Source: Dechloromonas sp.
GTDB lineage: Bacteria > Pseudomonadota > Gammaproteobacteria > Burkholderiales > Rhodocyclaceae
DNA: 64,000 nucleotides
Direction: 5' to 3'
Assembly (NCBI GenBank): GCA_028689015.1
Contig: JAQTXC010000005.1
Span: 3,107-67,106, forward strand
A model generated the notes under the pieces. The model worked only from the letters and a program-made list of their open reading frames with translations. It ran no database searches and was not told the DNA's origin. This document shows positions 3 through 17,870 of this stretch, piece after piece; position 1 is the stretch's first letter, and each line of letters begins with the position of its first letter. The translations under genes and the position numbers were made by a program.

Positions 3-167
3 CGGCAAGACATCGCCGAAATCACCGACCTGCGCTTTGAAACCATCTCCAGAATCATCAAGCAACTGGAACGCGCCGGCACTCTGGACCCGATCCGCCT
101 CGCTGGCATTCATGCCACCCGCAGCTTTCACCTCGCGGGGCAAGCCTGCCCCGCTCGCGGCGCTTGA
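3..167 (+). CDS. 3' end of a Crp/Fnr-family transcription regulator (partial, runs off window start)
   Basis: Frame 3 reads RQDIAEITDLRFETISRIIKQLER...GA*, a typical Crp/Fnr C-terminal HTH (R-Q-D-I-A...E-T-I-S-R); TGA at 165-167. Confidence 0.75.
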   Translation, partial: RQDIAEITDLRFETISRIIKQLERAGTLDPIRLAGIHATRSFHLAGQACPARGA

Positions 168-182
168 ACGTAAAATAGCGGG

Positions 183-887
183 ATGTTCACGGATTCCCTG
201 AATCTCCCGGCAAGCCAGCCCGAATGGCGGCGCAGCGGGCGCTTCTTCCTGATCGCCCTGGGCCTGCATGGCATGGCACTGGCTTATCCCCTGCATCAAG
301 CGCTGCACAGGGAGGCCGAAGCCTTGCCCGTGATGCAGGTGCAATTGGGCAGCGCCAAGTCGGTACCCACGCCGCTACCGCTTTCTGCAGTACCGCCCCC
401 CCAAAAGCAGACTGCCAGGCCGCAAGCTACACCCCGGAAAACGGTCATGCAGGTCGCAAAATCCCCGACCCAAACAGCAACGCCCCCCCTCGTTCCAAGT
501 CCTGTTCCGGTTGAAAATACCGTGCCAACGGCCGCCGTAACCACTACAGCACCGCTTGCCAGTGCCCCCATCAAGGCTGCCCCAGCCGCCGGCAACGCAC
601 CACTCAGTCCGGTACGCTTTGATGTGGCCTACCTGCAGAATCCAGCGCCGGCATATCCGGCAATCTCCCGCAGGCTGGGCGAGGAAGGGCGCGTACTGTT
701 GCGCGTCAAAGTCAGCGCAGAGGGCGCGCCGCTTGCGGTCAACCTGGAAAAAAGCAGCAATTTCGCCCGTCTGGACGACTCTGCCATTCAGGTCGTCAAC
801 CGCTGGCGCTTCGTCCCCGCCAAACGCGGCGACGAAGCCATCGAAGCCTCGGTCATTGTGCCGATCGTGTTTCGGCTGGAAGGGTAG
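183..887 (+). CDS. tonB: TonB-family energy transducer
   Basis: N-terminal TM anchor with LHG motif, Pro-rich linker, TonB C-terminal domain (PAYPAISRRLGEEGRVLLRVKVSAEG...WRFVPA). Confidence 0.9.
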   Translation: MFTDSLNLPASQPEWRRSGRFFLIALGLHGMALAYPLHQALHREAEALPVMQVQLGSAKSVPTPLPLSAVPPPQKQTARPQATPRKTVMQVAKSPTQTATPPLVPSPVPVENTVPTAAVTTTAPLASAPIKAAPAAGNAPLSPVRFDVAYLQNPAPAYPAISRRLGEEGRVLLRVKVSAEGAPLAVNLEKSSNFARLDDSAIQVVNRWRFVPAKRGDEAIEASVIVPIVFRLEG

Positions 888-2556
888 GGTTCTCAAGCGT
901 CACATCGGCCAGTCGAATGGAATTGGAAAAAGCCTCAAGCAAACTCCGCGACTCCCTCAATTGATTCTCAAAGTGAGTGGTACCCTCTTTTGGGTTAAGG
1001 TTTATGACAGTTTCCTGCATCTTTTTATAGAGTTCTGAACCTCCGATTTCCAAGGCATCCAGTTGCAGTCCGTTGATAGCGCGTTTCCGGTTGCGAATTG
1101 TTTCGATGTCCGCCTGAATGGCGTCATCGTACATATCAAAAACCTCCTTAAGCCGCTCTTCAAGGCGCTGCATAACATCGCCATTCTGATTAATCTGGAC
1201 AAAATGCTCCATCAGCGGCCGGCCACGGTGGGCAACGCTTCTGCGCTGGGTTGAACTGTAGGCACTAATCCCCGCAACAGGAATGTCCTCATACTCTAGC
1301 ACGCTCTCCACTTCGTCCATGATGCACTCTAGGTCGTCCTCTGGCCTAAGATCTGCTTTGTTGAGCACCACATAGACTGAGCGATGCTCAACGCCAATCT
1401 CCTGAATGAAATCCAAGTCCGAGTCCGGGATGGTCCCGTTTGCGTCAAGGCCAATGAGCCAAATTATGGCGTCGGATTGTTGCGCGAATTGCACCGCGGT
1501 TTGTTTGTCGCTCTGGCTGTATTCGCCTGCTGTGGCCGGAGGGTTATAGCCGGGGGTGTCAATGAAACAAATGTTGCTGAAATAAGCGGGGTCCATCTGA
1601 ATGCCCACGCACATGAAGGGCATGAGGCTTTTGAGATCAAAGCTGAAAGAGTTAATGAATGCGTGAGAAATGCTTTTGTAGAACCCCACGTCCAAATCAA
1701 TGTGACCACCATTGGCGGAGTAACCGCGAATCAAGCGCTCATTGGTTGCTAGGACATAACTCGGGATCGCCGTGACGGGCTGGAGACCGACGGCCAGGCG
1801 AATTTCACGATCAAGAATGAAGCTGTTAATGAACTCAGATTTACCACTACTGAAACCGCCGACAATGCCCACGATAGTTCGCTTAAATACGTCCGGAAAG
1901 CCTACAAGTAGGCCTAATTCCTGTTCGATTGACTGCAGCATCAGTAGCGCCTTTGCTTCGGCGGCCAAGGAAGACTCTGATTCCGCAAAGACCATGTAGT
2001 CGTTCGCCAGCACTTGCCGGAAACGGGCTAGCCCCATATTTTCTGGGGGGTGTGCGGCTAGCAGTTGTGAAATGAGTTGGAAACGAGTCCAGGTGTCGCC
2101 GTGTCGCTGCTCCAGTGCTTTTAGCTCAGCCGCCAGTTTTTGTGAGGTCTCCAACTCATTGGCGAGGGCCAATTCGGCGGCTTTTCGCTCTTGGACGACT
2201 TGGTTATGGTTTGTTGCCAATGTGTCAAAGCGTATTCGCGCCTGCTCACAGTCATGTTGGTGCTGCGTCTGGGATTGATTCAACAACAGCTGCAACCCCT
2301 GAAAGTCATGCCGCGATTGCGCAAGTTCGGCGTTGGTAGCGGCCACGCGTTCGGTAAGGTGCAAGTGCACTTGGGTCAGGGCCTGAAACTGCTCCTGCGT
2401 GTTCTGGTGCGCTCGTACTAGAGCCTCGTGCCGAGTGTCCGCAGTGCGAAGATCCTCAACAATAGCGTCGTGTAGCGACTTTCGTCGCCAGACAAACAGT
2501 CGCGTCAGTTTTACAAGGTGTATAAATAGGGAGGGAGGGAGCAATTCGGACATCAT
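853..2556 (-). CDS. Dynamin-like GTPase 3 (N-terminal coiled coil, central GTPase domain)
   Basis: G1 GGFSSGKS, G2 PVT, G3 DTPG, G4 NKAD; long heptad-rich N-terminal region; ATGA overlap with upstream gene. Confidence 0.85.
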   Translation of the reverse strand: MMSELLPPSLFIHLVKLTRLFVWRRKSLHDAIVEDLRTADTRHEALVRAHQNTQEQFQALTQVHLHLTERVAATNAELAQSRHDFQGLQLLLNQSQTQHQHDCEQARIRFDTLATNHNQVVQERKAAELALANELETSQKLAAELKALEQRHGDTWTRFQLISQLLAAHPPENMGLARFRQVLANDYMVFAESESSLAAEAKALLMLQSIEQELGLLVGFPDVFKRTIVGIVGGFSSGKSEFINSFILDREIRLAVGLQPVTAIPSYVLATNERLIRGYSANGGHIDLDVGFYKSISHAFINSFSFDLKSLMPFMCVGIQMDPAYFSNICFIDTPGYNPPATAGEYSQSDKQTAVQFAQQSDAIIWLIGLDANGTIPDSDLDFIQEIGVEHRSVYVVLNKADLRPEDDLECIMDEVESVLEYEDIPVAGISAYSSTQRRSVAHRGRPLMEHFVQINQNGDVMQRLEERLKEVFDMYDDAIQADIETIRNRKRAINGLQLDALEIGGSELYKKMQETVINLNPKEGTTHFENQLRESRSLLEAFSNSIRLADVTLENPTLPAETRSAQ

Positions 2557-4790
2557 GCGGCCTCCAGATCCTTGGCCATCCGTTGCAAGCGGTCAAGTGT
2601 CAGCAGTGCGTTATCGACCAGCCCTTCCAATTGCTCGATCCGAGTCTGCATGTCTTTGAAGAAATCGTCCCCAATAGAGCGTGGCAAACCATTGGCTATG
2701 TCATCCGTAAAGTCACGAATTTGGCGAGTAGCCTGCCCTTTGAGGTTCTGGAGAAGACCCTTGGCATCGTCCAAAAAATTGCGCGCCTCGCAATTTAGTA
2801 AATAACTTCCGTTACCCTTCAATTTGTGCAGCTCACTGCTGTCTAATTCAAATTGCGGGATTTCAATTTTGGAAACAAGGCCATTAACGGAGCGAATAAC
2901 GAGTGCTGGGTCGACATCGTCGCCAAGGTGCCGCCTAGCGGCCTGCGTGATCTCTTTTATGAGTTGCTGAAGAAACCGGTGCGTCAAGTCACTGCTCGAG
3001 TACCTCAAGGAGTTGGCTAACCCATTTGCGAAGTCATCGAGGCCGGCACGAACTGGGTTCAAGTACAGTTTGAACTCCCTATATGTGTATTCTTCCGTGC
3101 CACCTCCCCAGCCCCAATTTGCACCCTTGGCAACGATACTGTCACGGACACGGCTACGAGTTTCTCTTATCTCTTCTGAAGCACTTTTGAATGAATCCTC
3201 TGTTTCGTCGTAAGCGCTTTTCAGATCGGCGGTAAGCGTCTTTTTAAGTTGATCTCGAAATTCTGGTACCCGTTCAGAGATAACTCCATCAAGGTCATGA
3301 GTTGCCACCGCGATCAAGCTATCGAGCTTCCGTCGCTGAGCCTTTAACTCATCGAGATCGGCATTCTTAACTTCCTGGAACTTGGCTTGAGTAAACTTCA
3401 GGAGGTCGGCGCGAAATGCCTCCAGTGCTGACGACTTTGCCCGTACCAATTCTGCGCGTCGTTGCTCGATTATGTGGTTCTTTTGCTCTCTGACCTTTCC
3501 CAGTACCCCACGTAGCGCGGCAGTGTTGGCAAGTAAGTCCAGGTTGGCGCGACAACGGTCAGCGTTGTCCGGTGTAAAAAAATCCTGGTAGTGAGCCTGC
3601 AGGTTTTCCCAGGCCTTGCGCTCACCGCTGTCCCATCCATCCTGTTGGTCAAAACGAACCGACAAGCTGTGACACACACCGGACGTGTGTAGAACCTTTC
3701 CGGTGCCACGCAGGATCAGTCCGTCAAAAGTGCTTCCTATTTCCGGATGCTGGCTCTTCAGACGCTGCAGCGTGTCAACCATGTGCGAGCTGAGGGTCTG
3801 AGTGATTTTTTCCAGCGAAGCTTGCAGGGTGGGTTGGCGGGTGTCGCTGCCATAAAGCTGGTTATCAACCTGGCTGGCGATTAGGACGAGCTCCTGGACG
3901 CCCTCCTTTTGAGTGATCCGGCTCATAACCTCAAGGTCTTGTTCACTGAGGAACTGTCCTGCAGGGCTGACAATAAACACCACGTCACAATCCTTGAGCA
4001 GATTGGTAGTCCGCTCCTCACGGGACTGCACAGGGTCGTTCAGGCCCGGGGTATCGATAATCCGGACATTACGAAGCGATTCTAAGGGCAGGAAAATATC
4101 AACGCTCTTGGTTAGAGGCATGTAGCTGCCTTCTGCACCAACATATTCGAGCAACTGGCTGGCTAGCGAGTTTGCGTCTTCCGCCTGGAGCTGACCCAGA
4201 TTGCCGAGGTCCGTAAGGTCGACCCCAGATGCATCAATGCGTTGCCATTGATCATGCGCAGCGGCTAGCGATTGCTCTGCCTGCACGGCACGCAGCGCGT
4301 TTTTCTCGACCTGGTTCCAGAATTCATCGTCTTCACATGTCTGGCCATTTTGCTGTCGGCGTCGGCGAAGAACATCTACGGCCTTGGCCCGCTCTTCAAC
4401 AAGTCTCGCCTCGAAGCGTTTGGCGTCCTTCTGGATATTTTCCAGATCTGCAGTGCTGTAGAACTGGACTTGAGCGCCGAATGAATCCGCATGGGTGAGA
4501 GTGGTTAGGGCTGCGGTCATAGGCGTGGCAGCCCGGGGAAGAATATTGTGACCGTCGAACACCAGAGCATTGAGCAAAGACGATTTGCCCGCCTTAACTC
4601 GGCCTACCACACCGATCTGCAGCAGCCGGTTTTCTTCGGTCAGCTTCTCGAACGAACGGGCCAATTCCTCGGGGCGCCCAATGGCATGTTTCCTGATCCA
4701 GTGAGCAATATCTTTTTCCAGTTCCTGGTGATATGTCTCCATCCAATGGTGGAGCCGTTGGTTCAGATCAAGGACGTCCTTTGCATTCAT
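2553..4790 (-). CDS. Dynamin-like GTPase 2
   Basis: G1 GRVKAGKS, G2 PMT, G3 DTPG, atypical G4 SQVD; long helical C-terminal stalk; 745 aa. Confidence 0.85.
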   Translation of the reverse strand: MNAKDVLDLNQRLHHWMETYHQELEKDIAHWIRKHAIGRPEELARSFEKLTEENRLLQIGVVGRVKAGKSSLLNALVFDGHNILPRAATPMTAALTTLTHADSFGAQVQFYSTADLENIQKDAKRFEARLVEERAKAVDVLRRRRQQNGQTCEDDEFWNQVEKNALRAVQAEQSLAAAHDQWQRIDASGVDLTDLGNLGQLQAEDANSLASQLLEYVGAEGSYMPLTKSVDIFLPLESLRNVRIIDTPGLNDPVQSREERTTNLLKDCDVVFIVSPAGQFLSEQDLEVMSRITQKEGVQELVLIASQVDNQLYGSDTRQPTLQASLEKITQTLSSHMVDTLQRLKSQHPEIGSTFDGLILRGTGKVLHTSGVCHSLSVRFDQQDGWDSGERKAWENLQAHYQDFFTPDNADRCRANLDLLANTAALRGVLGKVREQKNHIIEQRRAELVRAKSSALEAFRADLLKFTQAKFQEVKNADLDELKAQRRKLDSLIAVATHDLDGVISERVPEFRDQLKKTLTADLKSAYDETEDSFKSASEEIRETRSRVRDSIVAKGANWGWGGGTEEYTYREFKLYLNPVRAGLDDFANGLANSLRYSSSDLTHRFLQQLIKEITQAARRHLGDDVDPALVIRSVNGLVSKIEIPQFELDSSELHKLKGNGSYLLNCEARNFLDDAKGLLQNLKGQATRQIRDFTDDIANGLPRSIGDDFFKDMQTRIEQLEGLVDNALLTLDRLQRMAKDLEAA

Positions 4791-6547
4791 GGCTGAGTCT
4801 GCTTGTAGAGGGTTTCCTTGGCCAGGCCTTGAAGCTCTACTCTGACAGAAAGGAGGTGGGCAACTTGCTGCTCTTTCGCCTGGCCATCTTGGTGTCGGTT
4901 GGACATTAATTCATCGATGATTCGTTGTTTTTCGCCGATCTCGCGCTCGAACTCTGCACTAACTTGCGCGACCAGTTCATCCAGTTGCTCGTTCAATAGG
5001 GTTGGCAGCTTGTACCTCAATTCACGCTTGACTGCGGGAATGATCTCGTTCATTACTTTCTGTCGGAGTTGGTCTCTCTGGCGACCTTGATTGATCATGG
5101 CCAAGATGTCCGGTAAAAAGATAATGGCCAGTTCGATCAGGGGATTGACCACGGATGTGGTTACGGCCAAGATCGTTGTCAAGCCTTGGTAAGTCACTTT
5201 GGGCAGTGGCTGCCCTTCTTTCCAGTTGTTATCTTTCTTCAGTTTTTCCAACTCTCGCGAGTTGCGCTCGGCCAACGAACCGCTCCAATGCCCAACGGTT
5301 TCCACTGTTTTATGTAGGGTACGATTGATCTTGTCCGACATATCGCCCAGCCAGTTCTGGTCATTATTGAACGCTCCCATAGCGTTGCCCAGATTACCCA
5401 GCGACTGGGTGAAGTCGGACACGACCGAGCGACTTATGAACTCCATCTGGTCCTTTATGGTGCGAGTCATCGCGCTCCGGACTACCTCCGAGATGATCCG
5501 CGAGAAACCCTCCTGGTTGCTCGACAAGCCTGCATTTACTAGCTCTTCACGGACATTCTCTAGTTCGCGCCCGGAGTCAGAAACACAGCGTTCCACCATC
5601 CGGTCCAGTTGCTGGTTGCGTAGGTCAGCAAGGATATCGTCCCGCTTACGTTCAACTTTGCGGATGCCGTCCGCTAGTTCGCTCAAAGCATATTCATTCT
5701 CCGCTTGGTTCTTCTTTAATGAGGTTAACGCCAGATTAATTTGGCTGATAAGCGAGTGGGTGAGGTCCTTCAGGCGATCCTCGAACAGTTGCCGAATGAT
5801 GCGTTCAGGCTCCAGCCTCGTCAGCAAATCGGCCAGCCGTACCCCATCGTCAAGACCAACGCGCGTTAAGGGGTGGACGTTGGCGAAGGCAGACTTGATT
5901 TGCTCGCTGATCAGATCCGACACTTCATTTATCTGCTCTTCGGAGCGGAGGTTTACCTTATTCAACAGGAAAGTGAAATCACGCCCGTAGGTCTGCAAGT
6001 CATCCAGCTGACGCATCATTGATTGGGTGATGTTGCCGTCTTCGATGCTGGTGACTACGATAAAGTGCACGCCGCGTGGAAGGTAATAGGCAATAGCCTT
6101 GTTGTGATTGGCAAGCGACGACCCAAAACCGGGCATATCCACCAACACCAGAGAAGTTAAAGCCTCAAGATGCGGGTTATCCAGGTACAACTGCAGGTGG
6201 GTAAACTCGCGTGCCCTAGCCTTGATGTTTGCTAGCCCGCTCACGTTAAGACGCTCGCTACTACCATCTGAGCGCAGAGCGAGGAGGTGCGGGTCGCTGC
6301 AGTAGCGTAGTTCGGTCGCTAGTTCCGTTTCTGGGGTGAGGCCAACACCCAAGACATCTACCCCTAGGAATGCATTGAGCAAACTGCTCTTACCAGCACT
6401 GAAGGCACCAATGACGGGTACCAACAATTCGATGTGGCTTATGTCTTCCTTTAGCAGCTGTAGTTCATTGGTTTGGAGAGGAGTTTCGCCGATCAGTTTA
6501 ATCACTGCTTCGAGGTAACTCAGGTACGCGCGTTGGGTATTCAACAT
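4787..6547 (-). CDS. Dynamin-like GTPase 1 with C-terminal hydrophobic membrane segment
   Basis: G1 GAFSAGKS, G2 PET, G3 DMPG, G4 NKVN; helical stalk and hydrophobic GLTTILAVTTSVVNPLIELAIIFLPDILAMI; AAGGA RBS upstream. Confidence 0.85.
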   Translation of the reverse strand: MLNTQRAYLSYLEAVIKLIGETPLQTNELQLLKEDISHIELLVPVIGAFSAGKSSLLNAFLGVDVLGVGLTPETELATELRYCSDPHLLALRSDGSSERLNVSGLANIKARAREFTHLQLYLDNPHLEALTSLVLVDMPGFGSSLANHNKAIAYYLPRGVHFIVVTSIEDGNITQSMMRQLDDLQTYGRDFTFLLNKVNLRSEEQINEVSDLISEQIKSAFANVHPLTRVGLDDGVRLADLLTRLEPERIIRQLFEDRLKDLTHSLISQINLALTSLKKNQAENEYALSELADGIRKVERKRDDILADLRNQQLDRMVERCVSDSGRELENVREELVNAGLSSNQEGFSRIISEVVRSAMTRTIKDQMEFISRSVVSDFTQSLGNLGNAMGAFNNDQNWLGDMSDKINRTLHKTVETVGHWSGSLAERNSRELEKLKKDNNWKEGQPLPKVTYQGLTTILAVTTSVVNPLIELAIIFLPDILAMINQGRQRDQLRQKVMNEIIPAVKRELRYKLPTLLNEQLDELVAQVSAEFEREIGEKQRIIDELMSNRHQDGQAKEQQVAHLLSVRVELQGLAKETLYKQTQP

Positions 6548-6947
6548 GGGAAAGATTCCTTGTGTTTGTCGGTTACTAATTTTTTATAAAATATTGTCAT
6601 TTGCATGAGGCCGTCCTAGCAACAACTTAATCCGGGGACTAGGTCCAGGCATATCTCAAGCGCCAGGCTTCCCGGCACCTTGTGCATTCAGAGGTCGAAA
6701 TGAAACGGTAGGTGCTTGGTGCTTTGCACCCAATTCAAAAGTTGCGAGCCCAAATTGGAGAAGTCCTTCTTTCGCCAACCAAAGTGCCCATTTGCCGCTA
6801 AATGACATCTTTAAGCAGCCGTTTGTAAGAGGGACCCTTCGGTGGATAAGATGAGTATCGCACTATCAGCTTTTCCTGATGCGGATGTAATCTGGCAATG
6901 TAAATCATGTCCAGCGTCACCTAAAATTTATCCAAATTAGCCGTTCT

Positions 6948-7133
6948 TCAACTAAACACAATACGCAACATATCAAGGGGTGTAGGCAATCGCCTCAATA
7001 GCTGTTTACAACCGCATTTCTCGCATTGCTTAACGATGTCTCCCGGCAGCAGTACATCACTCATCGGCGCGACAGTCTTTTTCCACCCGCAAGACTGACA
7101 GACATAGGTCATCGGTTTTGGTCGAATCGGCAT
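6948..7133 (-). CDS. Small Zn-ribbon protein (61 aa)
   Basis: CQSC...CEKC pairs; GGAG RBS 6 nt before ATG at 7133; starts 24 bp after the WYL stop. Confidence 0.75.
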   Translation of the reverse strand: MPIRPKPMTYVCQSCGWKKTVAPMSDVLLPGDIVKQCEKCGCKQLLRRLPTPLDMLRIVFS

Positions 7134-7157
7134 ATGAGTCTCCAATAAGCAGAACCA

Positions 7158-8153
7158 TCACACATCGTAATTTCGGCACATCGCTTTAACGATCTGCGCA
7201 ATTTCATTCCGCAACTCCGCCGGCCCTTCAACGATCACCTGATCCCCAAACCCCAGCAGCCATACCCGCAGCGCCTTGGTATCCGCAACCGTTGCGGTGA
7301 TCGTTACGCTGCCATTCGGATGCTCATCAATTTTTTGATCAGGGGCCAAAAGCCTTTCAGTCACGCTGGGCGCGGCGCCCTGACTGAAGGTGGCTACCAG
7401 CCTGATCGGCCCCCCTTCGCCCACCTGCCAGCCAAAAGCGCCCCCCTGGATGTACGCCTCCAGATCGAACCCTGCTAGCGGCACGATGTCCGTTTCCTGC
7501 AACTCGGCTGTGGCAATTCGATGCAGGGCCAACTGCCGGATATCGGTGTAGCTACCGATGGTTGCCACCAGATAAATGATCTGGTTTCTCACCACCAAGC
7601 CCAGCAGGTTGATGACATAGTTTTTGACTTGCGATCCCGTGCGCGGGACGTAATCGATACGCAGTTGCTTGTTAGTCAGCAAGGCTCGCGAGACACGTTC
7701 CTGAATGGCTTCATCAACGAGGGGAGGCATCAGCGCTTGCCCGGCGGCGAGGACGCGCACCTTGTTACGCCATGCCCCCAAACCACCATCCTGCTGATCG
7801 AGCACTCTCTTGGCCGTATCGAACCAGGGAGAAAGTTGCCCGAGGCTGGCCGCTGGCAGCAGGGCATGGAGGTGTTTCTCCGCCAGATGGAACACCAGCG
7901 CGGTCAACGGCTCCAGCGTAGGTAAATCCAGCTGCGGCGCATCAGGCCGCCAACTCCACCCTTGAGGCTTTGAATCGTCGGAACTCAAGGGCAAGGCCCG
8001 GGAGAGGTTGACCAGATCCCGCTGCACCGTGCGCAAATTTACCTGGAAGCCGGAGGCCTCGAGACGCTCCAGCAAGGATTTTGCGTCAATGCGTTTGGGT
8101 GGCCGCGGAATTCCCCGAAGCATGCACCACTGGCGTAACAAGGCATCACTCAT
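7158..8153 (-). CDS. WYL-domain transcriptional regulator (wHTH-WYL-WCX; BrxR/CapW-like architecture)
   Basis: N-terminal HTH RTVQRDL; WYL-like core (LRIDY...IIYLVA...LALHRI); WCX-like end (LRVWLLGFGDQVIVEGPAELR). Confidence 0.9.
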   Translation of the reverse strand: MSDALLRQWCMLRGIPRPPKRIDAKSLLERLEASGFQVNLRTVQRDLVNLSRALPLSSDDSKPQGWSWRPDAPQLDLPTLEPLTALVFHLAEKHLHALLPAASLGQLSPWFDTAKRVLDQQDGGLGAWRNKVRVLAAGQALMPPLVDEAIQERVSRALLTNKQLRIDYVPRTGSQVKNYVINLLGLVVRNQIIYLVATIGSYTDIRQLALHRIATAELQETDIVPLAGFDLEAYIQGGAFGWQVGEGGPIRLVATFSQGAAPSVTERLLAPDQKIDEHPNGSVTITATVADTKALRVWLLGFGDQVIVEGPAELRNEIAQIVKAMCRNYDV

Positions 8154-8184
8154 GGCGAATCGGGGTGCAGTTCGGGAGGAATGT

Positions 8185-8231
8185 GAAAGGCATGGGCGTA
8201 TGACTATAGCGCATGCCTTTCGATTTATGAA
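8185..8231 (-). promoter_or_regulatory. Sigma70 promoter of the WYL gene with overlapping inverted-repeat operator
   Basis: Minus strand TTCATA(8231-8226)-N17-TATAGT(8208-8203); perfect IR GAAAGGCATG(8185-8194)-N17-CATGCCTTTC(8212-8221) flanks the -10. Confidence 0.65.
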
Positions 8232-8246
8232 ATGCCTTCCGCGTAG

Positions 8247-8266
8247 GCGAATGGAATTCCATTCGC
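8247..8266. repeat. Perfect 20-bp palindrome GCGAATGGAATTCCATTCGC
   Basis: Directly visible; lies between the small ORF stop and the WYL promoter. Confidence 0.85.
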
Positions 8267-8278
8267 AATGCCACGGAT

Positions 8279-8404
8279 TTATTCAGCGGATGCCTTGCGG
8301 ATCTTTTCGAAGTACTTGGCCAGCGAGATGGTTGATACGACTCCCGCCACAAAGACGATGGCAAAGGCAGTCAAATGTTCAAGTGGGGAATTGGTTGAAT
8401 ACAT
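8279..8404 (-). CDS. Unannotated 41-aa single-TM peptide
   Basis: MYSTNSPLEHLTAFAIVFVAGVVSTISLAKYFEKIRKASAE*; AGGAG RBS 5 nt upstream; below the 60-aa cutoff of the ORF track. Confidence 0.55.
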   Translation of the reverse strand: MYSTNSPLEHLTAFAIVFVAGVVSTISLAKYFEKIRKASAE

Positions 8405-8567
8405 AGGAGCTCCTGGGCTGTGTCAGCGCGTTTCAATGCAAAGCAGTTTGACAGCCAGTAGCGACAGAACACGTCGTATACCGCTCCGCCGAAACACCTC
8501 GTCACCTCCGGCGGGAAGACTGTAGTTTCGGATTGCTTGAAAATGCGCCTGGCCAACAAGTAGCGGC

Positions 8568-10202
8568 TTACCCCAGGCGCGCCAACAAACACGCGGCAGC
8601 CGTTTGGTGCATGACCAACACCAGCTTCATCGAACTACGCGTTGCCCCGACAAACAGTTTGCGCAAAGCCTTGTCGTCCAGCACGTCACAATCTATTTCG
8701 GTCAGGATGATCGCCGGTGCCGCCTGACCCTTGAAGCGATAGACCGAGTCCACCAGGACATCGCCATCGGTGTACACCGGCTGGCCCAGTAAGTCGTATT
8801 CGCCGGTGAAATGGCGCAATGAGGTTGTTCCGAGTTTGTCGAGGGTGGTCAGGTGCGACTGCTCCCGACCGTGATAGCTGATGATGGCCAAATCATGTTT
8901 CTTGAAACCGGCGGCATAGCATAGCCGGATGCCTTCCTTGACCCGGGCAAACATGCCCGCGGTATCCTCGTAATCCAGAATTTCAATGTCCTCGCCAATA
9001 AAAGGAGAGGCCGCTTCGATGTCCACATGGCCCGGCATCAAGCGCTTGAGCAAATCGACCACGGGCCGGGGACTGCGATAATTGGTGTTGGCCCGCATCG
9101 TGATAAAACCCGGCAAGGCAATGGGCGTGCGGCCATAGAGGTTCTGCACCGGGTCCTCCAGCCAGACAATGCGAGCCTCCGTTCGCGCATGACGGAAAAT
9201 GAAGTCACGCCATTTTTCGGAAATATCCTGCCCCTCATCCACGATCAGGGTATCGAACAGGAAGCTGGCACCGATTGGTAACTCAGCCGCCCGTTTCTGA
9301 ATTTTATCGAACGCATCGGGTTGACCGTAGTAAGGCACTTCTCCGGCATGGCGGATACGTTGCTCGCAAAGCTGATGGAAGGTCACTGCCAAACCGCCAC
9401 GAGGCGCGATCCGGCTGAAATGGTCGGCCAGTGGCCGGTTGTAACAAACATAGAGCGGGCGCTTGCCAGCCGCCAAACTAGCCCGAAACTCAGCCAGGGC
9501 CAGTTGCGTCTTCCCCGACCCGGCAGTGCCCGTGACCCGCAAGCGAAATGGCTCGAACTCCAAGCGTCTTGCCCAATGTGCCAAGCCACCGGAAATTCGG
9601 GTCACCAAGGCCTTGGCCTGCCCCATCAGCGCGCTGACATCCGGCTCAAGCTGGATCAGGTCGCGCAAGAATGCGTGCACCTTTGCCGTTGCCGGGGTTT
9701 CCTCGCGCAGCGGAAGCAGTTTCTCGACAATTTTGCACAATTGCCCACGTCGACCGGCGTCAACAATCCGTTCAGGCACCAGCCCAGCCGTTTCCGGTTG
9801 CTTGACGGCGTAATCCGGGCAATAGAGCAGGGCATCCGTGTGAATCAGGGGAATGTCACCCCGCGTGGCGAGCTTGCCTCGCAGATTGCTGACCATGCGG
9901 GAAATCTGCACCGCGACATTTTTTGATTTGCGAGGATATTGCTTTACCAGACCCTCTGGCGTTTCCTCCAGAAATCCACATTTCTGCTCGATCAGCAGCA
10001 AGTCCCCCGCGCAATTCACGACAGCAAAATCAATTTCCCCATAAATCGCGTGCTGTCCATCCATGCCTGTCCAGTGCACGCCGTGATACACGCTGTAGTC
10101 ATCTGGCAGTCCCTCTGCCAGGATTTCAAGCGTCTCAATTTCGCGCTTCGCTGCACCTGTCACTGCGAGTTCACGCCAACCATCGGGAATGATGCGGGCC
10201 AT
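8568..10202 (-). CDS. NERD nuclease fused to SF1 (UvrD-like) helicase/ATPase
   Basis: NERD motif EID...LLIEQK; Walker A GTAGSGKT; Walker B LIVDEGQD; motifs EDPVQNLY, NYRS, RFKG, FVGATRS. Confidence 0.85.
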   Translation of the reverse strand: MARIIPDGWRELAVTGAAKREIETLEILAEGLPDDYSVYHGVHWTGMDGQHAIYGEIDFAVVNCAGDLLLIEQKCGFLEETPEGLVKQYPRKSKNVAVQISRMVSNLRGKLATRGDIPLIHTDALLYCPDYAVKQPETAGLVPERIVDAGRRGQLCKIVEKLLPLREETPATAKVHAFLRDLIQLEPDVSALMGQAKALVTRISGGLAHWARRLEFEPFRLRVTGTAGSGKTQLALAEFRASLAAGKRPLYVCYNRPLADHFSRIAPRGGLAVTFHQLCEQRIRHAGEVPYYGQPDAFDKIQKRAAELPIGASFLFDTLIVDEGQDISEKWRDFIFRHARTEARIVWLEDPVQNLYGRTPIALPGFITMRANTNYRSPRPVVDLLKRLMPGHVDIEAASPFIGEDIEILDYEDTAGMFARVKEGIRLCYAAGFKKHDLAIISYHGREQSHLTTLDKLGTTSLRHFTGEYDLLGQPVYTDGDVLVDSVYRFKGQAAPAIILTEIDCDVLDDKALRKLFVGATRSSMKLVLVMHQTAAACLLARLG

Positions 10203-10261
10203 AAGCCTTCCTGAATTATGAGGAAAGCATCGAGCTTAATGCATTCATCAAGCCGCGACCA

Positions 10262-10548
10262 GACGTGACGACGGGGACCGAAGTCCCCGCCGGCTATCTT
10301 TGGTAACAAGGCTCTAGCAGCCCCGGCTAACCGTTTTTAGGCGGCAATAGCGAATTGCTCATCATTGGCAATTATGGATTTGCTTCATTAACGTCGATCG
10401 CCTGACGAGTTGCCTGCGCACCTTTGTCCGCCCTGTCGAAACCAGTACACCCCCAACCAAACACACTGCAGTCAATGCCCTTGGGTGGAGGTGAGGGGAA
10501 TCGAACCCCTGTCCAGAACGCCTCCAGATTGCTGGAATTACAACCATG
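10262..10548 (-). ncRNA. ssrA: Circularly permuted (two-piece) tmRNA gene
   Basis: Minus-strand order: acceptor piece ending T-arm AGGGG-TTCGATT-CCCCT plus CACCTCCA (10486); about 31-nt intervening segment; 5' acceptor strand GGGGGTG (10454) giving a G3:U70 pair; tag ORF ANDEQFAIAA* (10369-10337); terminal cUUCGg hairpin. Outer ends approximate. Confidence 0.95.
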
Positions 10549-10554
10549 CTTTCT

Positions 10555-10583
10555 ATTATGGGGGCGACGGTCGCATTGTTCAA
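10555..10583 (-). promoter_or_regulatory. Sigma70 promoter of ssrA
   Basis: TTGAAC(10583-10578)-N17-CATAAT(10560-10555), just upstream of the acceptor piece. Confidence 0.7.
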
Positions 10584-10613
10584 GACATCACCGTCGGTCC
10601 CAGGCTTCGCGGT

Positions 10614-11166: not shown

Positions 11167-11763
11167 TCAGCCGCCGTTCTGATAACTCAACAAACGCTCG
11201 CAATAACGGGCGATCAGGTCAATTTCCAAATTGACCTTACTTCCCGGCTGCAGGCGGTTGAGGGTGGTGTTTTCCAGGGTATGGGGGATCAGGTTGATGG
11301 TGAAATCGTTGCCATTGACCGCGTTGGTGGTCAGGCTGGTGCCATCGACAACGATCGAGCCCTTGCGGGCGATGTATTTAGCGATGTCTCCCGGCACCCG
11401 GATTTCAAGCAGTCGGTTGTCACCGACAGGATCGAAACGCAGCACTTCGCCAACCCCGTCGACATGGCCGGAGACCAGATGACCGCCGATGACGTCCGCC
11501 AGCCGCAGCGCCTTTTCCAGATTAACCGGCCCCGGCGCATCAAGACCGACCGTGCAGGACAGGGTTTCCGGCGAGACATCGACCATGAAGCAGTTGCCTT
11601 CCTTGGCCACCACGGTCAGGCAGACGCCGTTATGGGCAATCGAGTCACCCAGCGCCACATCATCAATATTCAAGGCAGCGGCGTCGACATGCAACCGATA
11701 GCCGACTTCGCGCGGGGTGAGTTCGGTGATGCGGCCGACCGCCGCGACAATTCCAGAAAACAT
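11167..11763 (-). CDS. ribE: Riboflavin synthase alpha chain
   Basis: MFSGIV N-terminus, GDSIAHNGVCLTV, GHLVSGHVDG, VNLEID. Confidence 0.95.
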   Translation of the reverse strand: MFSGIVAAVGRITELTPREVGYRLHVDAAALNIDDVALGDSIAHNGVCLTVVAKEGNCFMVDVSPETLSCTVGLDAPGPVNLEKALRLADVIGGHLVSGHVDGVGEVLRFDPVGDNRLLEIRVPGDIAKYIARKGSIVVDGTSLTTNAVNGNDFTINLIPHTLENTTLNRLQPGSKVNLEIDLIARYCERLLSYQNGG

Positions 11764-11835
11764 GGCAATAAACCCGTCAGACGAAAAATGGGCACTTTAG
11801 CACGTCGACCGCGCACATCCGGCGCGGGCGCCGGC

Positions 11836-13545
11836 TCAAAACTCGGCGACTTTGCCGTATTTTTTGGCGACCGTCACATAGAGATTGCGGGCGGCAGCCA
11901 GCTTGGGGCTCTTGCGATCACGGGCCTGCGCCTGGCGTAGATAGGCCAGCGCCCGCAGCGCCAAGTCCTCATCCCAGCCCTGACGATCCAAAAGCGTGTA
12001 AATCGACTTGGCCGCATTAACCAGGAACTGCAGGTTGGGCACTTGGTCGGCCGCCTGCATCAGCAATTTGACGGCCTCAGCCAGATCACCACTGCGTGCT
12101 GCTAGCACGCCTCGATTATTGAGTTCGATAATTTCACGCTCAACCGAGGCCAGCAAGGCCTTGCCAGCGTCGGCCCGGCCGGTTTTCTCGAACACACGAT
12201 GAATGTGACCCAGCAAATGGGGGTCATCGTTATTCTCCGCCGCCACCTGACGCATTAATCGATGACCCGCCGCATCATCCCCACTGCCGTAGCAGGCATG
12301 CGCCAGATCAACCAGCAAACGGTGCGAAGCATGACCGCCGTTCTGAGTCAGCTCACTGCCAAGCCGCTGCTGTGCCAGCTGCGCCTGCTCCAACAGCGGC
12401 TTGGCCTTGTCCGGCAAGCCTTCGCTTTGCAGACAAAGACTCTCAATGACCAGTGATGCCAGTTCCAGTTGCTTGTCGTAACGGCATTCTCGCTTCATGT
12501 CCGTCATCACTCGCCGGGCCGCCTCGGCGTCGCCGCGCGCCACCAGGGTGCGCGACAGGTTGGCAAAATCATCGACTGTCTGCAGGCTGGAGCCATGACT
12601 GCGTTCAAGCACTTTGCCGAAGGCTTTTTCGGCAGCCAGCAGATCATGATTGCGCAACGCCACATCCCCCACCATGCGCTGGCGCATGGTGTTGTGCGGC
12701 GAGGCGTCGGCGGCCCGTTGCAGCGCCTGCTGGGCATCGTGTAAGCGCCCTCGCGCCTCGTTGACCGCGGCTAAAAAATCGTAGGCTCCCAAAAATTGCG
12801 GCGCATCGACCAGGACTGCTTCAGCCAGTCCGGCGGCTTCATCAAGCGCCCCACGCTCACGCAGGCTCTTGGCCAGCCCCATGCGCGCCCAAGGCACAAC
12901 CTTGCCTTCAAGGACCTGCCGATAAACCGCTTCCGCCTCGTCGCTACGGCCCAACTGATGCAGCAGCTCTCCTTTGAAACGCAGGCCGTCGTACATATAC
13001 ACGGGCTGCTGCTGGATGACCCGGTCACACGCCAGAATGGCCTCTTCCAGCGCCCCGTGATTGATTTTGTCGTAAATATGGCGCAGCACATACTGCCGGA
13101 AGATGGTCCGCACCAGACGACCTTTGAGTTGCTCAGCGGTAAAAGGCTTGACCAGGTAATCATCCGGTGCCAGCTCGGCCAGGGCAACGACGTTGCTGTA
13201 GCTGCGTTCGCTGGTGATGATGACGTAGACCGTCCCGAGCGGAATCAGGTGGGCGTAACGCAATTCTTCCAGCAACTGCTGGCCGTCACGACCATCATCG
13301 AGAATGAAGTCGGACAGGATGATGTCGAAGCGATTGGCCCGTACCTGACGGATAACTTCGGCGGAATTACCCGCCCCATGGACCGCAGTCACGCCAAGGC
13401 TCCCCAACATCAGACGCAGGGAATCACGCGCCGGCGCGTGACGATCGACGATCAATACCCGCTTCTTGGTCAACGATTGCTGCAAGATGAGCAGCATATC
13501 GTCATCATCGAGCGCGCTGGGAGACTTTCCGACTGGAGATGGCAT
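11836..13545 (-). CDS. Response-regulator receiver domain plus TPR repeats
   Basis: REC (RVLIVD...IILSD...YLVKPF) followed by TPR-like helices; start placed at ATG 13545 because the ORF-track extension overlaps mnmG. Confidence 0.8.
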   Translation of the reverse strand: MPSPVGKSPSALDDDDMLLILQQSLTKKRVLIVDRHAPARDSLRLMLGSLGVTAVHGAGNSAEVIRQVRANRFDIILSDFILDDGRDGQQLLEELRYAHLIPLGTVYVIITSERSYSNVVALAELAPDDYLVKPFTAEQLKGRLVRTIFRQYVLRHIYDKINHGALEEAILACDRVIQQQPVYMYDGLRFKGELLHQLGRSDEAEAVYRQVLEGKVVPWARMGLAKSLRERGALDEAAGLAEAVLVDAPQFLGAYDFLAAVNEARGRLHDAQQALQRAADASPHNTMRQRMVGDVALRNHDLLAAEKAFGKVLERSHGSSLQTVDDFANLSRTLVARGDAEAARRVMTDMKRECRYDKQLELASLVIESLCLQSEGLPDKAKPLLEQAQLAQQRLGSELTQNGGHASHRLLVDLAHACYGSGDDAAGHRLMRQVAAENNDDPHLLGHIHRVFEKTGRADAGKALLASVEREIIELNNRGVLAARSGDLAEAVKLLMQAADQVPNLQFLVNAAKSIYTLLDRQGWDEDLALRALAYLRQAQARDRKSPKLAAARNLYVTVAKKYGKVAEF

Positions 13546-13687
13546 GCGCGGAAAGTACTTGAGATCCCGTAGCCGAGCAAGACAAGCCTCGCGGTCGACG
13601 ACGGCAAATCTGTGATTTTTCAGCCACCTGACGTAAAATTCGCGGTCCTTTACCGCACTGCAGCAACGCTGCCAGAAAGCCCTACGC

Positions 13688-16209: not shown

Positions 16210-16215
16210 AAAAAC

Positions 16216-17825: not shown

Positions 17826-17870
17826 AGCCCACAAAAGGGAGCAGCTATTGCGGTAAACCCCTAATTCTCA

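What the first reader, a model, noticed from the sequence alone, without database searches (positions are those of the whole stretch)
853..10202. Candidate undescribed WYL-regulated defence/membrane-remodelling module: NERD-helicase, TM peptide, WYL, Zn-ribbon and three dynamins
Seen: seven co-oriented minus-strand genes sit between tonB and ssrA, and the dynamin part is visibly more AT-rich than the flanks. Established: WYL regulators such as BrxR and CapW repress adjacent anti-phage operons and respond to nucleic-acid ligands, and dynamin-like proteins (LeoABC/Eleos, DynA) have anti-phage roles. Inference: WYL senses ssDNA or nucleic-acid products, possibly made by the NERD-helicase, and switches on a three-dynamin membrane effector. 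I do not recall this exact combination being described.
Basis: partly seen in the sequence, partly recalled or inferred. Interest (0 to 1): 0.88.

Follow-up and report, generated by a model that had tools for sequence, protein, structure and literature searches.

The report
Three-dynamin cassette in WYL-headed defence slot
Next to the tmRNA gene of an Azonexus genome lies a swap-in slot for likely anti-phage genes, headed by a WYL-type regulator; here it holds a widespread but unstudied operon of three dynamin-like GTPases, while the neighbouring NERD-helicase is an ordinary conserved flank gene, not part of that operon.

Summary
The seven minus-strand genes and the low-GC dynamin block are real. 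They are not one seven-gene system.

- **Slot, not system.** Sister Azonexus contigs keep NERD-helicase, 41-aa peptide, WYL and Zn-ribbon at the same ssrA–tonB site. Between WYL/Zn-ribbon and tonB they carry different cargo: a PDC-M09-like pair or an unrelated NTPase trio.
- **NERD-helicase is a flank gene.** Orthologues occur in Accumulibacter (78%) and Azospira (61%) with no WYL or dynamin gene in the ±10 kb examined.
- **The cassette.** The DLP1-DLP2-DLP3 operon has translationally coupled genes. The copy shared with another metagenome carries only 31 bp upstream of DLP1.
- **Distribution.** It forms 70 clusters at 90% identity, with gene order 1-2-3 in nearly all complete loci. Its neighbours are rich in defence genes. 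The third subunit's family has 375 clusters at 50% identity.
- **Accessories.** Of 30 loci with adequate flanks, a WYL gene lies within 1.5 kb in 10, the Zn-ribbon gene in 11, and a NERD-helicase within 3 kb in 4.
- **Not Eleos.** Eleos has two dynamins. Here there are three full GTPases. The first two resemble the Campylobacter DLP pair, and LeoA is never detected.

Best reading: an Eleos-like but distinct candidate membrane-acting defence system under WYL control. No function has been tested.

The parts
853..2556 (-). DLP3: third dynamin-superfamily NTPase, with an N-terminal coiled coil (aa 1-220), a G domain (aa 229-400) and a short C-terminal helical part. This is the variable subunit of the triad.
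   Evidence: Pfam Dynamin_N scores 35.9 bits against a cut-off of 27. G1, G3 and G4 motifs are conserved in 60 family members. The best solved-structure match of the family profile is EHD2, E = 6e-6. The protein is 87% identical to the L016 DLP3, with a 28-aa coiled-coil deletion; the last ~12 residues are read from tonB-flank DNA. The family has 375 clusters at 50% identity with E <= 1e-30.
2553..4790 (-). DLP2: soluble dynamin-like GTPase with no hydrophobic segment. Its G4 motif is a variant, SQVD.
   Evidence: Pfam Dynamin_N scores 72.7 bits. The family profile matches C. jejuni DLP1 (5owv_A) at 6e-18 and Nostoc BDLP1 at 4e-11. Motifs are conserved in 84 members. No window of 19 residues exceeds the hydropathy cut-off.
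4787..6547 (-). DLP1: dynamin-like GTPase carrying the only strong hydrophobic paddle or hairpin (aa ~455-490). It is the likely membrane-binding subunit.
   Evidence: Pfam Dynamin_N scores 58.5 bits. Kyte-Doolittle peak is 1.98 at aa 459. The family profile matches C. jejuni DLP2 (5owv_C) at 4e-13, BDLP1 at 8e-11, then mitofusins and IniA. There is a weak partial PADLOC LeoA hit, 1e-12.
891..6578 (.). The swappable three-DLP cassette (cargo). Its left junction lies at 891-912, inside the 3' end of DLP3. Homology to the second copy ends 31 bp upstream of the DLP1 start codon.
   Evidence: blastn: L016 matches window 912-6578 at 93.3-93.5% nucleotide identity. Sister contigs L110 and L112 match only 3-890 and from 6961 or 7024 onward.
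6548..6947 (.). AT-rich 400-bp spacer between the Zn-ribbon gene and DLP1. It is unique to this locus and has no recognised promoter, terminator or RNA family.
   Evidence: GC is 45.3%, and blastn finds nothing in any fetched locus. No promoter-like or terminator-like site lies on the minus strand here. There is no Rfam match.
6948..7133 (-). 61-aa Zn-ribbon protein (CxxC...CxxC). It is an accessory gene linked to both WYL and the triad.
   Evidence: The family alignment is shown. The gene lies within 1.5 kb of the triad in 11 of 30 loci, and in 5 of those no WYL gene lies within 5 kb. It is intact after WYL in L112-115 and truncated in L110/111. It has a weak TIGR02605 match.
7158..8153 (-). 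HTH-WYL-WCX transcription regulator heading the cargo slot.
   Evidence: Pfam WYL scores 44.4 bits and WCX 63.3 bits. PADLOC WYL models match at 2.9e-27 and 3.9e-16. The family profile matches PafBC at 2e-19, DriD at 2e-13 and BrxR (7qfz) at 2e-4.
8185..8231 (-). Candidate WYL promoter (-35 TTCATA, -10 TATAGT), with the inverted repeat GAAAGGCATG-N17-CATGCCTTTC bracketing the -10. This is a putative operator.
   Evidence: The pattern occurs once in the window and in none of 100 shuffles. The repeat is conserved in L110 and degenerate in L112.
8279..8404 (-). 41-aa single-pass membrane peptide of unknown role, conserved alongside WYL and NERD-helicase.
   Evidence: Hydropathy is 2.25. Homologues occur in L001 and L016 and in L110-115, with a further profile hit in L040; orientation varies.
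8568..10202 (-). NERD nuclease + SF1/UvrD-like helicase. It is a conserved Rhodocyclales flank gene at the edge of the slot, not part of the cassette.
   Evidence: Domain hits are. Only weak PADLOC hits were found: RTasNERD-Hel 7e-14 and C3a187 2.6e-8. Orthologues occur in Accumulibacter and Azospira with no WYL or DLP gene in the ±10 kb examined.
10246..10596 (-). tmRNA gene (ssrA), the conserved anchor of the hotspot.
   Evidence: ARAGORN places it at 10246-10575 with tag ANDEQFAIAA. Rfam beta_tmRNA places it at 10266-10596 with 327.9 bits.
183..887 (+). TonB-family gene, the conserved distal flank of the slot.
   Evidence: Pfam TonB_C matches at 2.5e-19. The region is 98.8% identical to L110 up to position 890.

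Best explanation
The region is a chromosomal hotspot for variable, probably defensive, cargo between ssrA/NERD-helicase and tonB in Azonexus.

**Shown: slot architecture**
- The slot is headed by a small conserved set: a 41-aa membrane peptide, an HTH-WYL-WCX regulator and a Zn-ribbon protein.
- Downstream cargo is exchanged by recombination between the conserved flanks.
- In this genome the cargo is a horizontally acquired, lower-GC cassette of three translationally coupled dynamin-like NTPases.
- The NERD-helicase is a lineage-conserved flank gene.

**Shown: the triad**
- It is an independent, widespread, order-conserved operon enriched in defence neighbourhoods.
- All three nucleotide-binding motif sets are conserved.
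- Only DLP1 has a membrane paddle.
- The DLP3 subunit is the one that varies. Its coiled coil changes length. It can carry ankyrin or WG C-terminal repeats in multi-DLP operons. It is present in three copies in one operon.

**Inferred: mechanism**
1. The WYL dimer binds the inverted repeat over its own -10 element.
2. This controls a transcript that reads through the Zn-ribbon gene into the DLP genes. The cassette segment shared with L016 carries only 31 bp upstream of DLP1.
3. By analogy with CapW, DriD and PafBC, ssDNA or another infection or damage signal bound by the WYL domain switches the operon on.
4. DLP1 and DLP2, which resemble the Campylobacter DLP pair, assemble with DLP3 on the inner membrane.
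5. GTP-driven tethering, sealing or remodelling then blocks phage entry, replication-site formation or lysis. DLP3 supplies recognition or scaffolding.
For: **Slot architecture**
- Alternative cargos sit behind the same WYL gene. One matches PADLOC PDC-M09 A and B.
- The same cassette, 93.5% identical in nucleotides, lies behind a WYL protein only 50% identical in L016.

**NERD-helicase as a flank gene**
-.

**The triad as a unit**
- 70 clusters at 90% identity, with order 1-2-3 in nearly all.
- Conserved G motifs. A paddle only in DLP1.
- Resemblance to Cj-DLP1/2 and BDLP1.

**Defence context**
- McrBC, type I R-M, a Gabija-like pair and Zorya-like genes appear nearby.
- PADLOC hits among 100 neighbour proteins include ZacA/C, type I REase, DrmD/DrmA, BrxH, DpdE, MkoA, IetA and HmaA.

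**WYL linkage**
- 10 of 30 loci, L118 and L126.
- No spurious WYL or Zn-ribbon hits in ~450 kb of control DNA.
- A candidate operator and promoter.

**Published precedent**
- BrxR-family WYL repressors sit upstream of mosaic defence islands (PMC9122601).
- CapW senses ssDNA (PMC11662680, abstract).
- Eleos shows that paired dynamins can defend, and needs both P-loops (preprint 10.1101/2022.05.11.491447).
- An ssrA-flanked core defence hotspot exists in P. aeruginosa (PMC10250203).

**DLP3 variability**
-.
Against: - No functional or expression data exist. No RNA runs hold this locus.
- A 400-bp AT-rich spacer separates the Zn-ribbon gene from DLP1 in this window. It could hold an unrecognised independent promoter, and no second copy of the operator half-site lies in it.
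- About a third of triads have no WYL, Zn-ribbon or NERD gene nearby, so WYL control is optional.
- By sequence the WYL protein is nearer to the activators PafBC and DriD than to the repressor BrxR. The sign of regulation is therefore unknown.
- The closest solved relatives, Cj-DLP1/2, are thought to act in general membrane repair (PMC6104087). Some triads sit among housekeeping genes (L127).
- Defence enrichment was judged from a sample of neighbourhoods. It is not a genome-wide defence score.
Confidence: 0.6

Rival explanations
1. All seven genes form one integrated system. The NERD-helicase processes invading or damaged DNA into ssDNA, the WYL protein senses it, and this switches on the three-dynamin effector.
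For: NERD-helicase homologues lie within 3 kb of the triad in 4 of 30 loci. In L001, L016, L017, L040 and L091 they appear with a WYL gene in different arrangements. The helicase has intact Walker A and B motifs and PD-(D/E)xK-like residues. WYL regulators are known ssDNA sensors.
Against: The same NERD-helicase, peptide and WYL set is kept with two unrelated cargos. Orthologues at 78% and 61% identity in Accumulibacter and Azospira have no WYL or DLP gene in the ±10 kb examined. 26 of 30 triad loci lack a NERD-helicase within 3 kb. The P. aeruginosa WYL + triad locus has none.
Confidence: 0.08
2. The triad is a general membrane-stress or membrane-repair machine, like B. subtilis DynA, mycobacterial IniA/IniC or the Campylobacter DLP pair. 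It would not be a dedicated anti-phage system, and its place in variable regions would simply reflect accessory-gene traffic.
For: The closest solved relatives are Cj-DLP1/2, BDLP1, mitofusins and IniA. The Cj pair is proposed to repair membranes. Roughly a third of loci show no WYL, Zn-ribbon or NERD gene nearby. L127 is inserted in an ABC transporter operon.
Against: Distribution is patchy and horizontally transferred, and GC is lower. The triad sits in a slot that alternatively holds a PADLOC candidate system. Defence genes are frequent neighbours. It is recurrently coupled to WYL regulators of the defence-associated type. The DLP3 subunit diversifies through ankyrin, WG, Sel1/TPR and FGE-like repeats and through paralogy, which is more typical of recognition modules. 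DynA itself shows that the two roles are not exclusive (PMC8844932).
Confidence: 0.22
3. In this particular locus WYL and the triad are merely neighbours. WYL autoregulates itself and the Zn-ribbon gene only, and the DLP genes are expressed from their own promoter in the AT-rich spacer.
For: A 400-bp spacer of 45% GC, unique to this locus, separates the Zn-ribbon gene from DLP1. No operator half-site lies in it. AT-rich foreign DNA often carries fortuitous promoters (general knowledge).
Against: No promoter-like or terminator-like site is found on the coding strand in the spacer. The cassette shared with L016 starts only 31 bp upstream of DLP1. In L016, L025 and L118 the WYL stop lies 63, 12 and 59 bp from the DLP1 start, which implies co-transcription.
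Confidence: 0.2
4. The triad serves mobile elements rather than the host, for example in exclusion of or competition between plasmids and integrative elements at the membrane.
For: Copies lie on a P. aeruginosa megaplasmid and a Calditerrivibrio plasmid next to IS elements and integrases.
Against: Most copies are chromosomal, with no conjugation genes within 10 kb. The Azonexus slot has no integrase and no att-like repeat.
Confidence: 0.08

Closest known systems
Eleos (LeoBC + LeoA dynamin defence system; Millman et al. 2022 preprint 10.1101/2022.05.11.491447; ETEC LeoABC, PMC4159319)
   Same: Both are operons of adjacent dynamin-like GTPases found next to defence systems. The P-loops are intact here, and Eleos requires them. 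There are weak PADLOC hits: DLP1 to LeoA at 1e-12 and DLP2 to LeoBC at 1.4e-8.
   Different: Eleos has two dynamins; the ETEC version has three genes but only two G domains. Here there are three complete G-domain proteins in a different order. The PADLOC hits cover only part of each model, and DLP3 has none. The LeoA structure sequence is not found by single sequences at E <= 1 or by family profiles at E <= 0.1.
Campylobacter jejuni DLP1/DLP2 pair (PDB 5OWV; PMC6104087) and Nostoc BDLP1
   Same: These are the best solved-structure relatives of DLP2 (Cj-DLP1, 6e-18) and DLP1 (Cj-DLP2, 4e-13). The genes are arranged side by side. Only one partner has a membrane paddle.
   Different: The gene order is inverted relative to cj0411-cj0412. 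A third, EHD-like NTPase with a coiled coil is always present. The genomic context is defence islands, with WYL and Zn-ribbon genes rather than a beta-lactamase-like gene.
BrxR / CapW family of wHTH-WYL-WCX regulators of defence islands (PMC9122601; PMC11662680)
   Same: WYL and WCX domains are present. The gene is co-oriented at the head of variable defence cargo. An inverted repeat overlaps its own promoter. The mosaic downstream content matches what was described for BrxR homologues.
   Different: Sequence similarity to BrxR is weak (7qfz, 2e-4) and is stronger to PafBC and DriD, which are activators. A Zn-ribbon gene and a 41-aa membrane peptide travel with it. Dynamin cargo does not appear in that paper's text: no paper in the library holds BrxR, WYL and dynamin together.
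Core defence hotspot cDHS2 of Pseudomonas aeruginosa (ssrA-flanked; PMC10250203)
   Same: Conserved flanks include the tmRNA gene, and the content varies between related genomes.
   Different: The organism and flank genes differ. Here the slot has a resident regulator set, and no integrase or att repeat was found.

Membership tests
Eleos (LeoA + LeoBC) | Two adjacent dynamin-like proteins, with LeoBC sometimes split, giving two G domains in all | tested here: not met
   There are three separate full-length Dynamin_N proteins, each with its own conserved G1, G3 and G4 motifs.
Eleos (LeoA + LeoBC) | Proteins match the LeoA and LeoBC family models over most of their length | tested here: inconclusive
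   In PADLOC, DLP1 matches LeoA at 1e-12 over model positions 293-531 of 559. DLP2 matches LeoBC at 1.4e-8 over about 60 N-terminal residues. DLP3 has no hit. The LeoA PDB sequence is absent from all single-sequence and profile searches. The PADLOC and DefenseFinder decision rules themselves could not be run.
Eleos (LeoA + LeoBC) | Protects against phage in a P-loop-dependent way | not testable with these tools
   This needs cloning and phage challenge.
Bacterial dynamin-like proteins (dynamin superfamily) | Dynamin_N G domain above the Pfam gathering score, with G1-G4 motifs | tested here: met
   Scores are 58.5, 72.7 and 35.9 bits against a cut-off of 27.
Bacterial dynamin-like proteins (dynamin superfamily) | Membrane-binding paddle or hydrophobic hairpin in the stalk | tested here: met
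   This is met for DLP1 only (aa ~455-490, hydropathy 1.98). DLP2 and DLP3 have none.
BrxR/CapW-type wHTH-WYL-WCX regulators | WYL domain followed by a WCX dimerisation domain | tested here: met
   PF13280 scores 44.4 bits and PF25583 scores 63.3 bits.
BrxR/CapW-type wHTH-WYL-WCX regulators | N-terminal winged helix-turn-helix | tested here: inconclusive
   There is no Pfam HTH hit at E <= 0.01. PADLOC model PDLC01457 aligns from residue 24. The N-terminal block around RTVQRDL is largely conserved, with R45 and L47 invariant and R41 nearly so. PDB profile matches begin only at about residue 142.
BrxR/CapW-type wHTH-WYL-WCX regulators | Binds inverted repeats at its own promoter and represses downstream defence genes; a ligand (ssDNA) relieves repression | not testable with these tools
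   A candidate operator lies at 8185-8221 over the -10 element. Binding, sign of regulation and ligand are all untested.
Core defence hotspot (variable cargo between conserved flanks) | The same flanks carry different cargo in related genomes | tested here: met
   Three cargos lie between WYL/Zn-ribbon and tonB: the triad (window), a PDC-M09-like set (L110/111) and an NTPase trio (L112-115).
Known NERD-helicase defence genes (PADLOC NERD+UvrD candidates, Gabija GajB) | Full-length match to a defined defence-system protein model | tested here: not met
   Only partial or weak hits were found: RTasNERD-Hel 7e-14, C3a187 2.6e-8, GajB at 2e-4 or weaker. Orthologues sit among housekeeping genes in Azospira.

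The most novel reading that the evidence does not exclude
The DLP1-DLP2-DLP3 operon, often with the small Zn-ribbon protein, is a new and widespread anti-phage system distinct from Eleos. It would be a hetero-oligomeric three-dynamin membrane machine. DLP1 anchors it and DLP2 partners it. The fast-diversifying DLP3 acts as the recognition or scaffold subunit. Its variability shows as a coiled coil of changing length, ankyrin, WG, Sel1/TPR or FGE-like repeats, or several paralogues. In a third of cases the whole machine is wired to an ssDNA- or damage-sensing WYL regulator. The WYL-headed slot at ssrA would then be a plug-in socket for cassettes that carry little or no promoter DNA of their own.
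Probability: 0.35. Interest if true: 0.72.

Novelty: new variant of a known kind. Interest (0 to 1): 0.55.

Why it matters
Only two dynamin-based phage defences are documented in the papers read here: Eleos, a two-gene operon, and DynA. The mechanism is unknown for Eleos.

A third architecture would give a comparative handle on how bacterial dynamins recognise infection and act on membranes. This one is conserved in gene order and spans hundreds of 50%-identity clusters. It also has a visibly modular third subunit.

The locus further shows a clean natural experiment. One resident WYL regulator set is found with three different downstream cargos, and at the DLP1 end the copy shared with L016 begins only 31 bp upstream of the start codon. 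That makes the idea of a regulated plug-in socket directly testable.

Homologues exist on P. aeruginosa plasmids, so experiments are practical.

Tried and rejected
1. **Genome-collection scan.** The scan with the full DLP2 alignment chose P-loop peptides and was swamped. Only L001 and L002 were useful. It was redone on metagenome contigs with a sub-alignment lacking the P-loop.
2. **Classical integrative island at ssrA.** No direct repeat of the tmRNA 3' end and no integrase was found. Rejected in favour of exchange through homologous flanks.
3. **RNA element in the 400-bp spacer.** There is no Rfam match and no homologue in any locus.
4. **Transcript evidence.** Only DNA metagenome runs hold the locus, and just one holds it completely.
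5. **Is the third cargo (L112) a distant triad?** hhalign of the DLP2 profile against its 728-aa and 654-aa proteins gave only P-loop matches, with probability below 2%.
6. **WYL protein against solved structures.** The single sequence gave only PafC at 1.6e-3. A family profile was needed.
7. **NERD-helicase against solved structures.** Nothing at E <= 0.01.
8. **The 20-bp palindrome GCGAATGGAATTCCATTCGC after the peptide gene.** It is not conserved in L110 or L112, so it is not proposed as an operator.
9. **Second half of the neighbour-protein PADLOC scan.** The remaining 98 of the 198 neighbour proteins listed were not scanned, because the first 100 were already clear.

Full report
**1. What is in the sequence**

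Seven ORFs lie on the minus strand between a TonB-family gene (183-887, +) and the tmRNA gene (about 10246-10596, -).
- NERD nuclease + SF1/UvrD-like helicase, 8568-10202.
- 41-aa single-pass membrane peptide, 8279-8404.
- WYL + WCX regulator, 7158-8153.
- 61-aa CxxC...CxxC Zn-ribbon protein, 6948-7133.
- Three Dynamin_N proteins: DLP1 4787-6547, DLP2 2553-4790, DLP3 853-2556.

The three DLP genes overlap by 4 bp each, which suggests translational coupling. The DLP block is 52% GC and a 400-bp spacer upstream of DLP1 is 45%. WYL and NERD-helicase are 57-59%, and the window as a whole is 58.7%. Housekeeping proteins of the window cluster with Azonexus sp. sequences (Rhodocyclales), and the source contig is 87 kb.

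**2. The seven genes are not one unit**

Exact-sequence look-ups of near-identical NERD-helicases returned sister Azonexus contigs with the same chromosomal frame: mnmG, ribE, ssrA, NERD-helicase, 41-aa peptide, WYL, cargo, tonB. The genes between WYL and tonB differ.
- L110 and L111 carry proteins of 536, 193 and 331 aa.
- L112, L114 and L115 carry proteins of 728, 654 and 272 aa.

blastn places the junctions as follows.
- Homology to L110 covers window 3-890 (98.8%) and 7024-8479 (93.8%).
- Homology to L112 covers 3-886 and 6961-8404.
- The exchangeable cargo is therefore about 891 to 6960.

The L110 cargo matches the PADLOC candidate system PDC-M09, with component A at 2.5e-28 and B at 1.1e-13. 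The L112 cargo is two P-loop NTPases plus a coiled-coil protein. One NTPase has a sub-threshold Dynamin_N match. This cargo is not detectably related to the triad.

Conversely, contig L016 from another metagenome carries the same DLP cassette. It matches window 912-6578 at 93.3-93.5% nucleotide identity. Its WYL protein is only 50% identical and its NERD-helicase is very divergent. Cargo and head have therefore been recombined independently.

**3. The NERD-helicase is a flank gene**

Its homologues track Rhodocyclales phylogeny.
- In Accumulibacter (78% identity) it follows the biotin genes. It is followed by a VWA protein and then by strain-variable defence-type genes: an MmeI-like methylase, AAA_15/DUF4276, Fic and HNH.
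- In Azospira (61% identity) it lies among housekeeping genes.

No WYL or dynamin gene appears within the ±10 kb examined in either case. In the survey below only 4 of 30 triad loci have a NERD-helicase within 3 kb. The proposal that this helicase makes the ligand for WYL therefore has no specific support. It is not formally excluded.

**4. The three-dynamin operon is the real entity**

A metagenome scan used a DLP2 sub-alignment without the P-loop. Together with earlier look-ups it gave 95 loci, which fall into 70 clusters at 90% DLP2 identity.
- Nearly all complete loci show DLP1-DLP2-DLP3 in that order, down to about 30% identity. A small clade has the order 1-3-x-2.
- Named records place the operon in Burkholderia, Pseudomonas, Stutzerimonas, Luteimonas, Komagataeibacter, Brachyspira and Calditerrivibrio. 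Close DLP2 homologues (41% identity, full length) also occur in Aeromonas.
- The DLP3 family alone has 375 clusters at 50% identity with E <= 1e-30.
- G1, G3 and G4 motifs are conserved in all three families.
- Only DLP1 has a strong hydrophobic paddle, at aa 455-490.

Family profiles place the subunits as follows among solved structures.
- DLP1 is nearest to C. jejuni DLP2 and Nostoc BDLP1.
- DLP2 is nearest to C. jejuni DLP1.
- DLP3 is nearest to the EHD ATPases.
- LeoA never appears.

**5. Context**

The neighbourhoods read include several defence-type gene sets.
- McrBC (L017).
- Type I R-M (L025, L027).
- A Gabija-like pair (L026).
- An SNF2 helicase cluster (L021).
- Patatin (L029).
- Zorya-like EH-signature and DEAD helicase genes on a P. 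aeruginosa megaplasmid (L118).

A PADLOC scan of 100 neighbour proteins from 13 loci hit ZacA/C, type I REase, DrmA/D, BrxH, DpdE, MkoA, IetA, HmaA and GajB-like models at E <= 1e-10.

Among 30 non-redundant loci with at least 1.5 kb on both sides:
- a WYL gene lies within 1.5 kb in 10, usually directly upstream and co-oriented;
- the Zn-ribbon gene lies within 1.5 kb in 11, and in 5 of these no WYL gene lies within 5 kb;
- a NERD-helicase lies within 3 kb in 4;
- about 10 have none of these.

The profile HMMs gave no spurious WYL or Zn-ribbon hits in about 450 kb of control DNA.

The Zn-ribbon family is also found on an Allochromatium plasmid and a small Citrobacter plasmid without WYL or dynamin genes. 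It is therefore an accessory gene with a wider range. It is intact behind WYL in L112-115, but has lost its second CxxC at the cargo junction in L110/111.

**6. Regulation**

The WYL protein has WYL and WCX domains. Its family profile matches PafBC (2e-19), DriD (2e-13) and, weakly, BrxR (2e-4).

A promoter-like site (-10 TATAGT, 8203-8231) is bracketed by a unique 10-bp inverted repeat, GAAAGGCATG-N17-CATGCCTTTC (8185-8221). The repeat is conserved in L110.

The cassette shared with L016 begins only 31 bp upstream of the DLP1 start codon. In L016, L025 and L118 the WYL stop is 63, 12 and 59 bp from DLP1. Co-transcription from the WYL promoter is thus the likely general arrangement.

In this window the unique AT-rich spacer leaves room for an independent promoter, although none is recognised.

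BrxR-family regulators are described as repressors sitting upstream of mosaic defence islands (PMC9122601). CapW senses ssDNA (PMC11662680). The sign of regulation and the ligand here are inference only.

**7. The variable third subunit**

Within triads, DLP3 length varies through its N-terminal coiled coil. The G domain starts anywhere from residue 229 to 468.

Other DLP3-family proteins lack the long coiled coil. They carry C-terminal WG, ankyrin, Sel1/TPR, FGE-sulfatase-like or helix-hairpin-helix domains.
- The ankyrin form sits in a normal triad inserted inside an ABC-transporter operon (L127).
- The WG form sits in a WYL-headed operon with one DLP1, one DLP2 and three DLP3 paralogues (L126).

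This pattern suggests that DLP3 supplies recognition or scaffolding. That is inference.

**8. Comparison with what is known**

Eleos is a two-dynamin operon; the ETEC version splits one gene but still has two G domains. The triad fails the gene-content criterion. It matches PADLOC Leo models only partially. It is better described as an Eleos-like but distinct dynamin system built on a Cj-DLP1/2-type pair plus a third NTPase.

The WYL head fits the BrxR/CapW way of working, without being a close family member by sequence. The site resembles the ssrA-flanked core defence hotspot of P. aeruginosa.

No paper in the searchable library holds both 'dynamin' and 'WYL domain', or 'BrxR', 'WYL' and 'dynamin'. 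In the annotated plasmid records read, the genes are labelled simply 'WYL domain-containing protein' and 'dynamin family protein'.

**9. Verdict**

WYL-linked three-dynamin operons in a defence context are real and apparently undescribed. The seven-gene system and the helicase-to-WYL signalling idea are not supported.
- I rate it a new variant of a known kind, of moderate to good interest (0.55).
- No function has been demonstrated. The anti-phage role rests on guilt by association and on analogy with Eleos and DynA.

Noticed in passing
L112:7331-12340 (also L114, L115): An alternative cargo sits behind the same WYL/Zn-ribbon head. It is a 728-aa P-loop NTPase, a 654-aa protein with a sub-threshold Dynamin_N match (3.5e-5) and weak LeoBC/LeoA hits, and a 272-aa coiled-coil protein with weak ZorA-tail similarity. 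It looks like an uncharacterised three-gene cassette.
   Followed up: partly
L110:13639-16893 (also L111): Another alternative cargo matches PADLOC candidate system PDC-M09, with component A at 2.5e-28 and B at 1.1e-13, plus a 193-aa protein with no match. Its insertion junction truncates the Zn-ribbon gene, removing the second CxxC.
   Followed up: partly
window 8279-8404; L016:3185-3310; L001:7760-7894 and 15351-15524: A 41-44-aa single-pass membrane peptide (MY.NNSPLE.LAAFAIVFV.G...) is conserved next to WYL and NERD-helicase genes in varying orientation. L001 has a second, more divergent copy. Its function is unknown, and it matches no family in Pfam, NCBIfam or PADLOC.
   Followed up: partly
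L116:7001-7213 (Allochromatium vinosum plasmid pALVIN02); L117:4377-4577 (5.8-kb Citrobacter freundii plasmid): Unannotated homologues of the Zn-ribbon protein (profile E-values 3.5e-24 and 1.4e-15) occur on plasmids with no WYL or dynamin gene nearby. In Allochromatium the gene lies near RadC, VWA, DUF3150 and lambda-exonuclease genes.
   Followed up: partly
L126:3981-18083: A WYL-headed operon holds five dynamin-like genes: DLP1, DLP3 with 11 WG repeats, DLP2 and two further DLP3 paralogues. A MoxR-type AAA ATPase follows. DUF932, Rad52 and DUF2958 genes lie upstream.
   Followed up: partly
L127:3870-10790: A triad whose DLP3 carries C-terminal ankyrin repeats is inserted between the permease and ATPase genes of an ABC-transporter operon. 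A 69-aa ORF lies just downstream.
   Followed up: no
L119-L121, about 11700-21600: In Accumulibacter the orthologous NERD-helicase and a VWA protein border a strain-variable stretch with different defence-type genes in each genome: an MmeI-like methylase with ATPase_2/DUF234; AAA_15 with DUF4276; Fic with an HNH/ScoMcrA-like protein. This looks like a second hotspot flanked by the same helicase.
   Followed up: no
L098, L099, L102, L104, L106: A divergent clade (about 32% identity in DLP2) has the order DLP1-DLP3-(about 1.3-2 kb gap)-DLP2. In several cases Zn-ribbon and WYL lie downstream of DLP2 rather than upstream.
   Followed up: no
window 8243-8262: A perfect 20-bp palindrome, GCGAATGGAATTCCATTCGC, lies just after the peptide stop codon. 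It is degenerate in L110 and L112, so it is probably not a conserved operator. It may form a hairpin at the end of the peptide transcript.
   Followed up: partly
window 853-912: The last ~12 codons of DLP3 are read from DNA homologous to the tonB flank, so the cargo junction lies inside the gene. The stop codon overlaps the convergent tonB 3' end by 35 bp. Compared with L016, this DLP3 also has a 28-aa deletion in its coiled coil.
   Followed up: yes
window 10246-10596: ARAGORN and Rfam give tmRNA coordinates offset by about 20 nt at both ends (10246-10575 against 10266-10596). This was not resolved.
   Followed up: no
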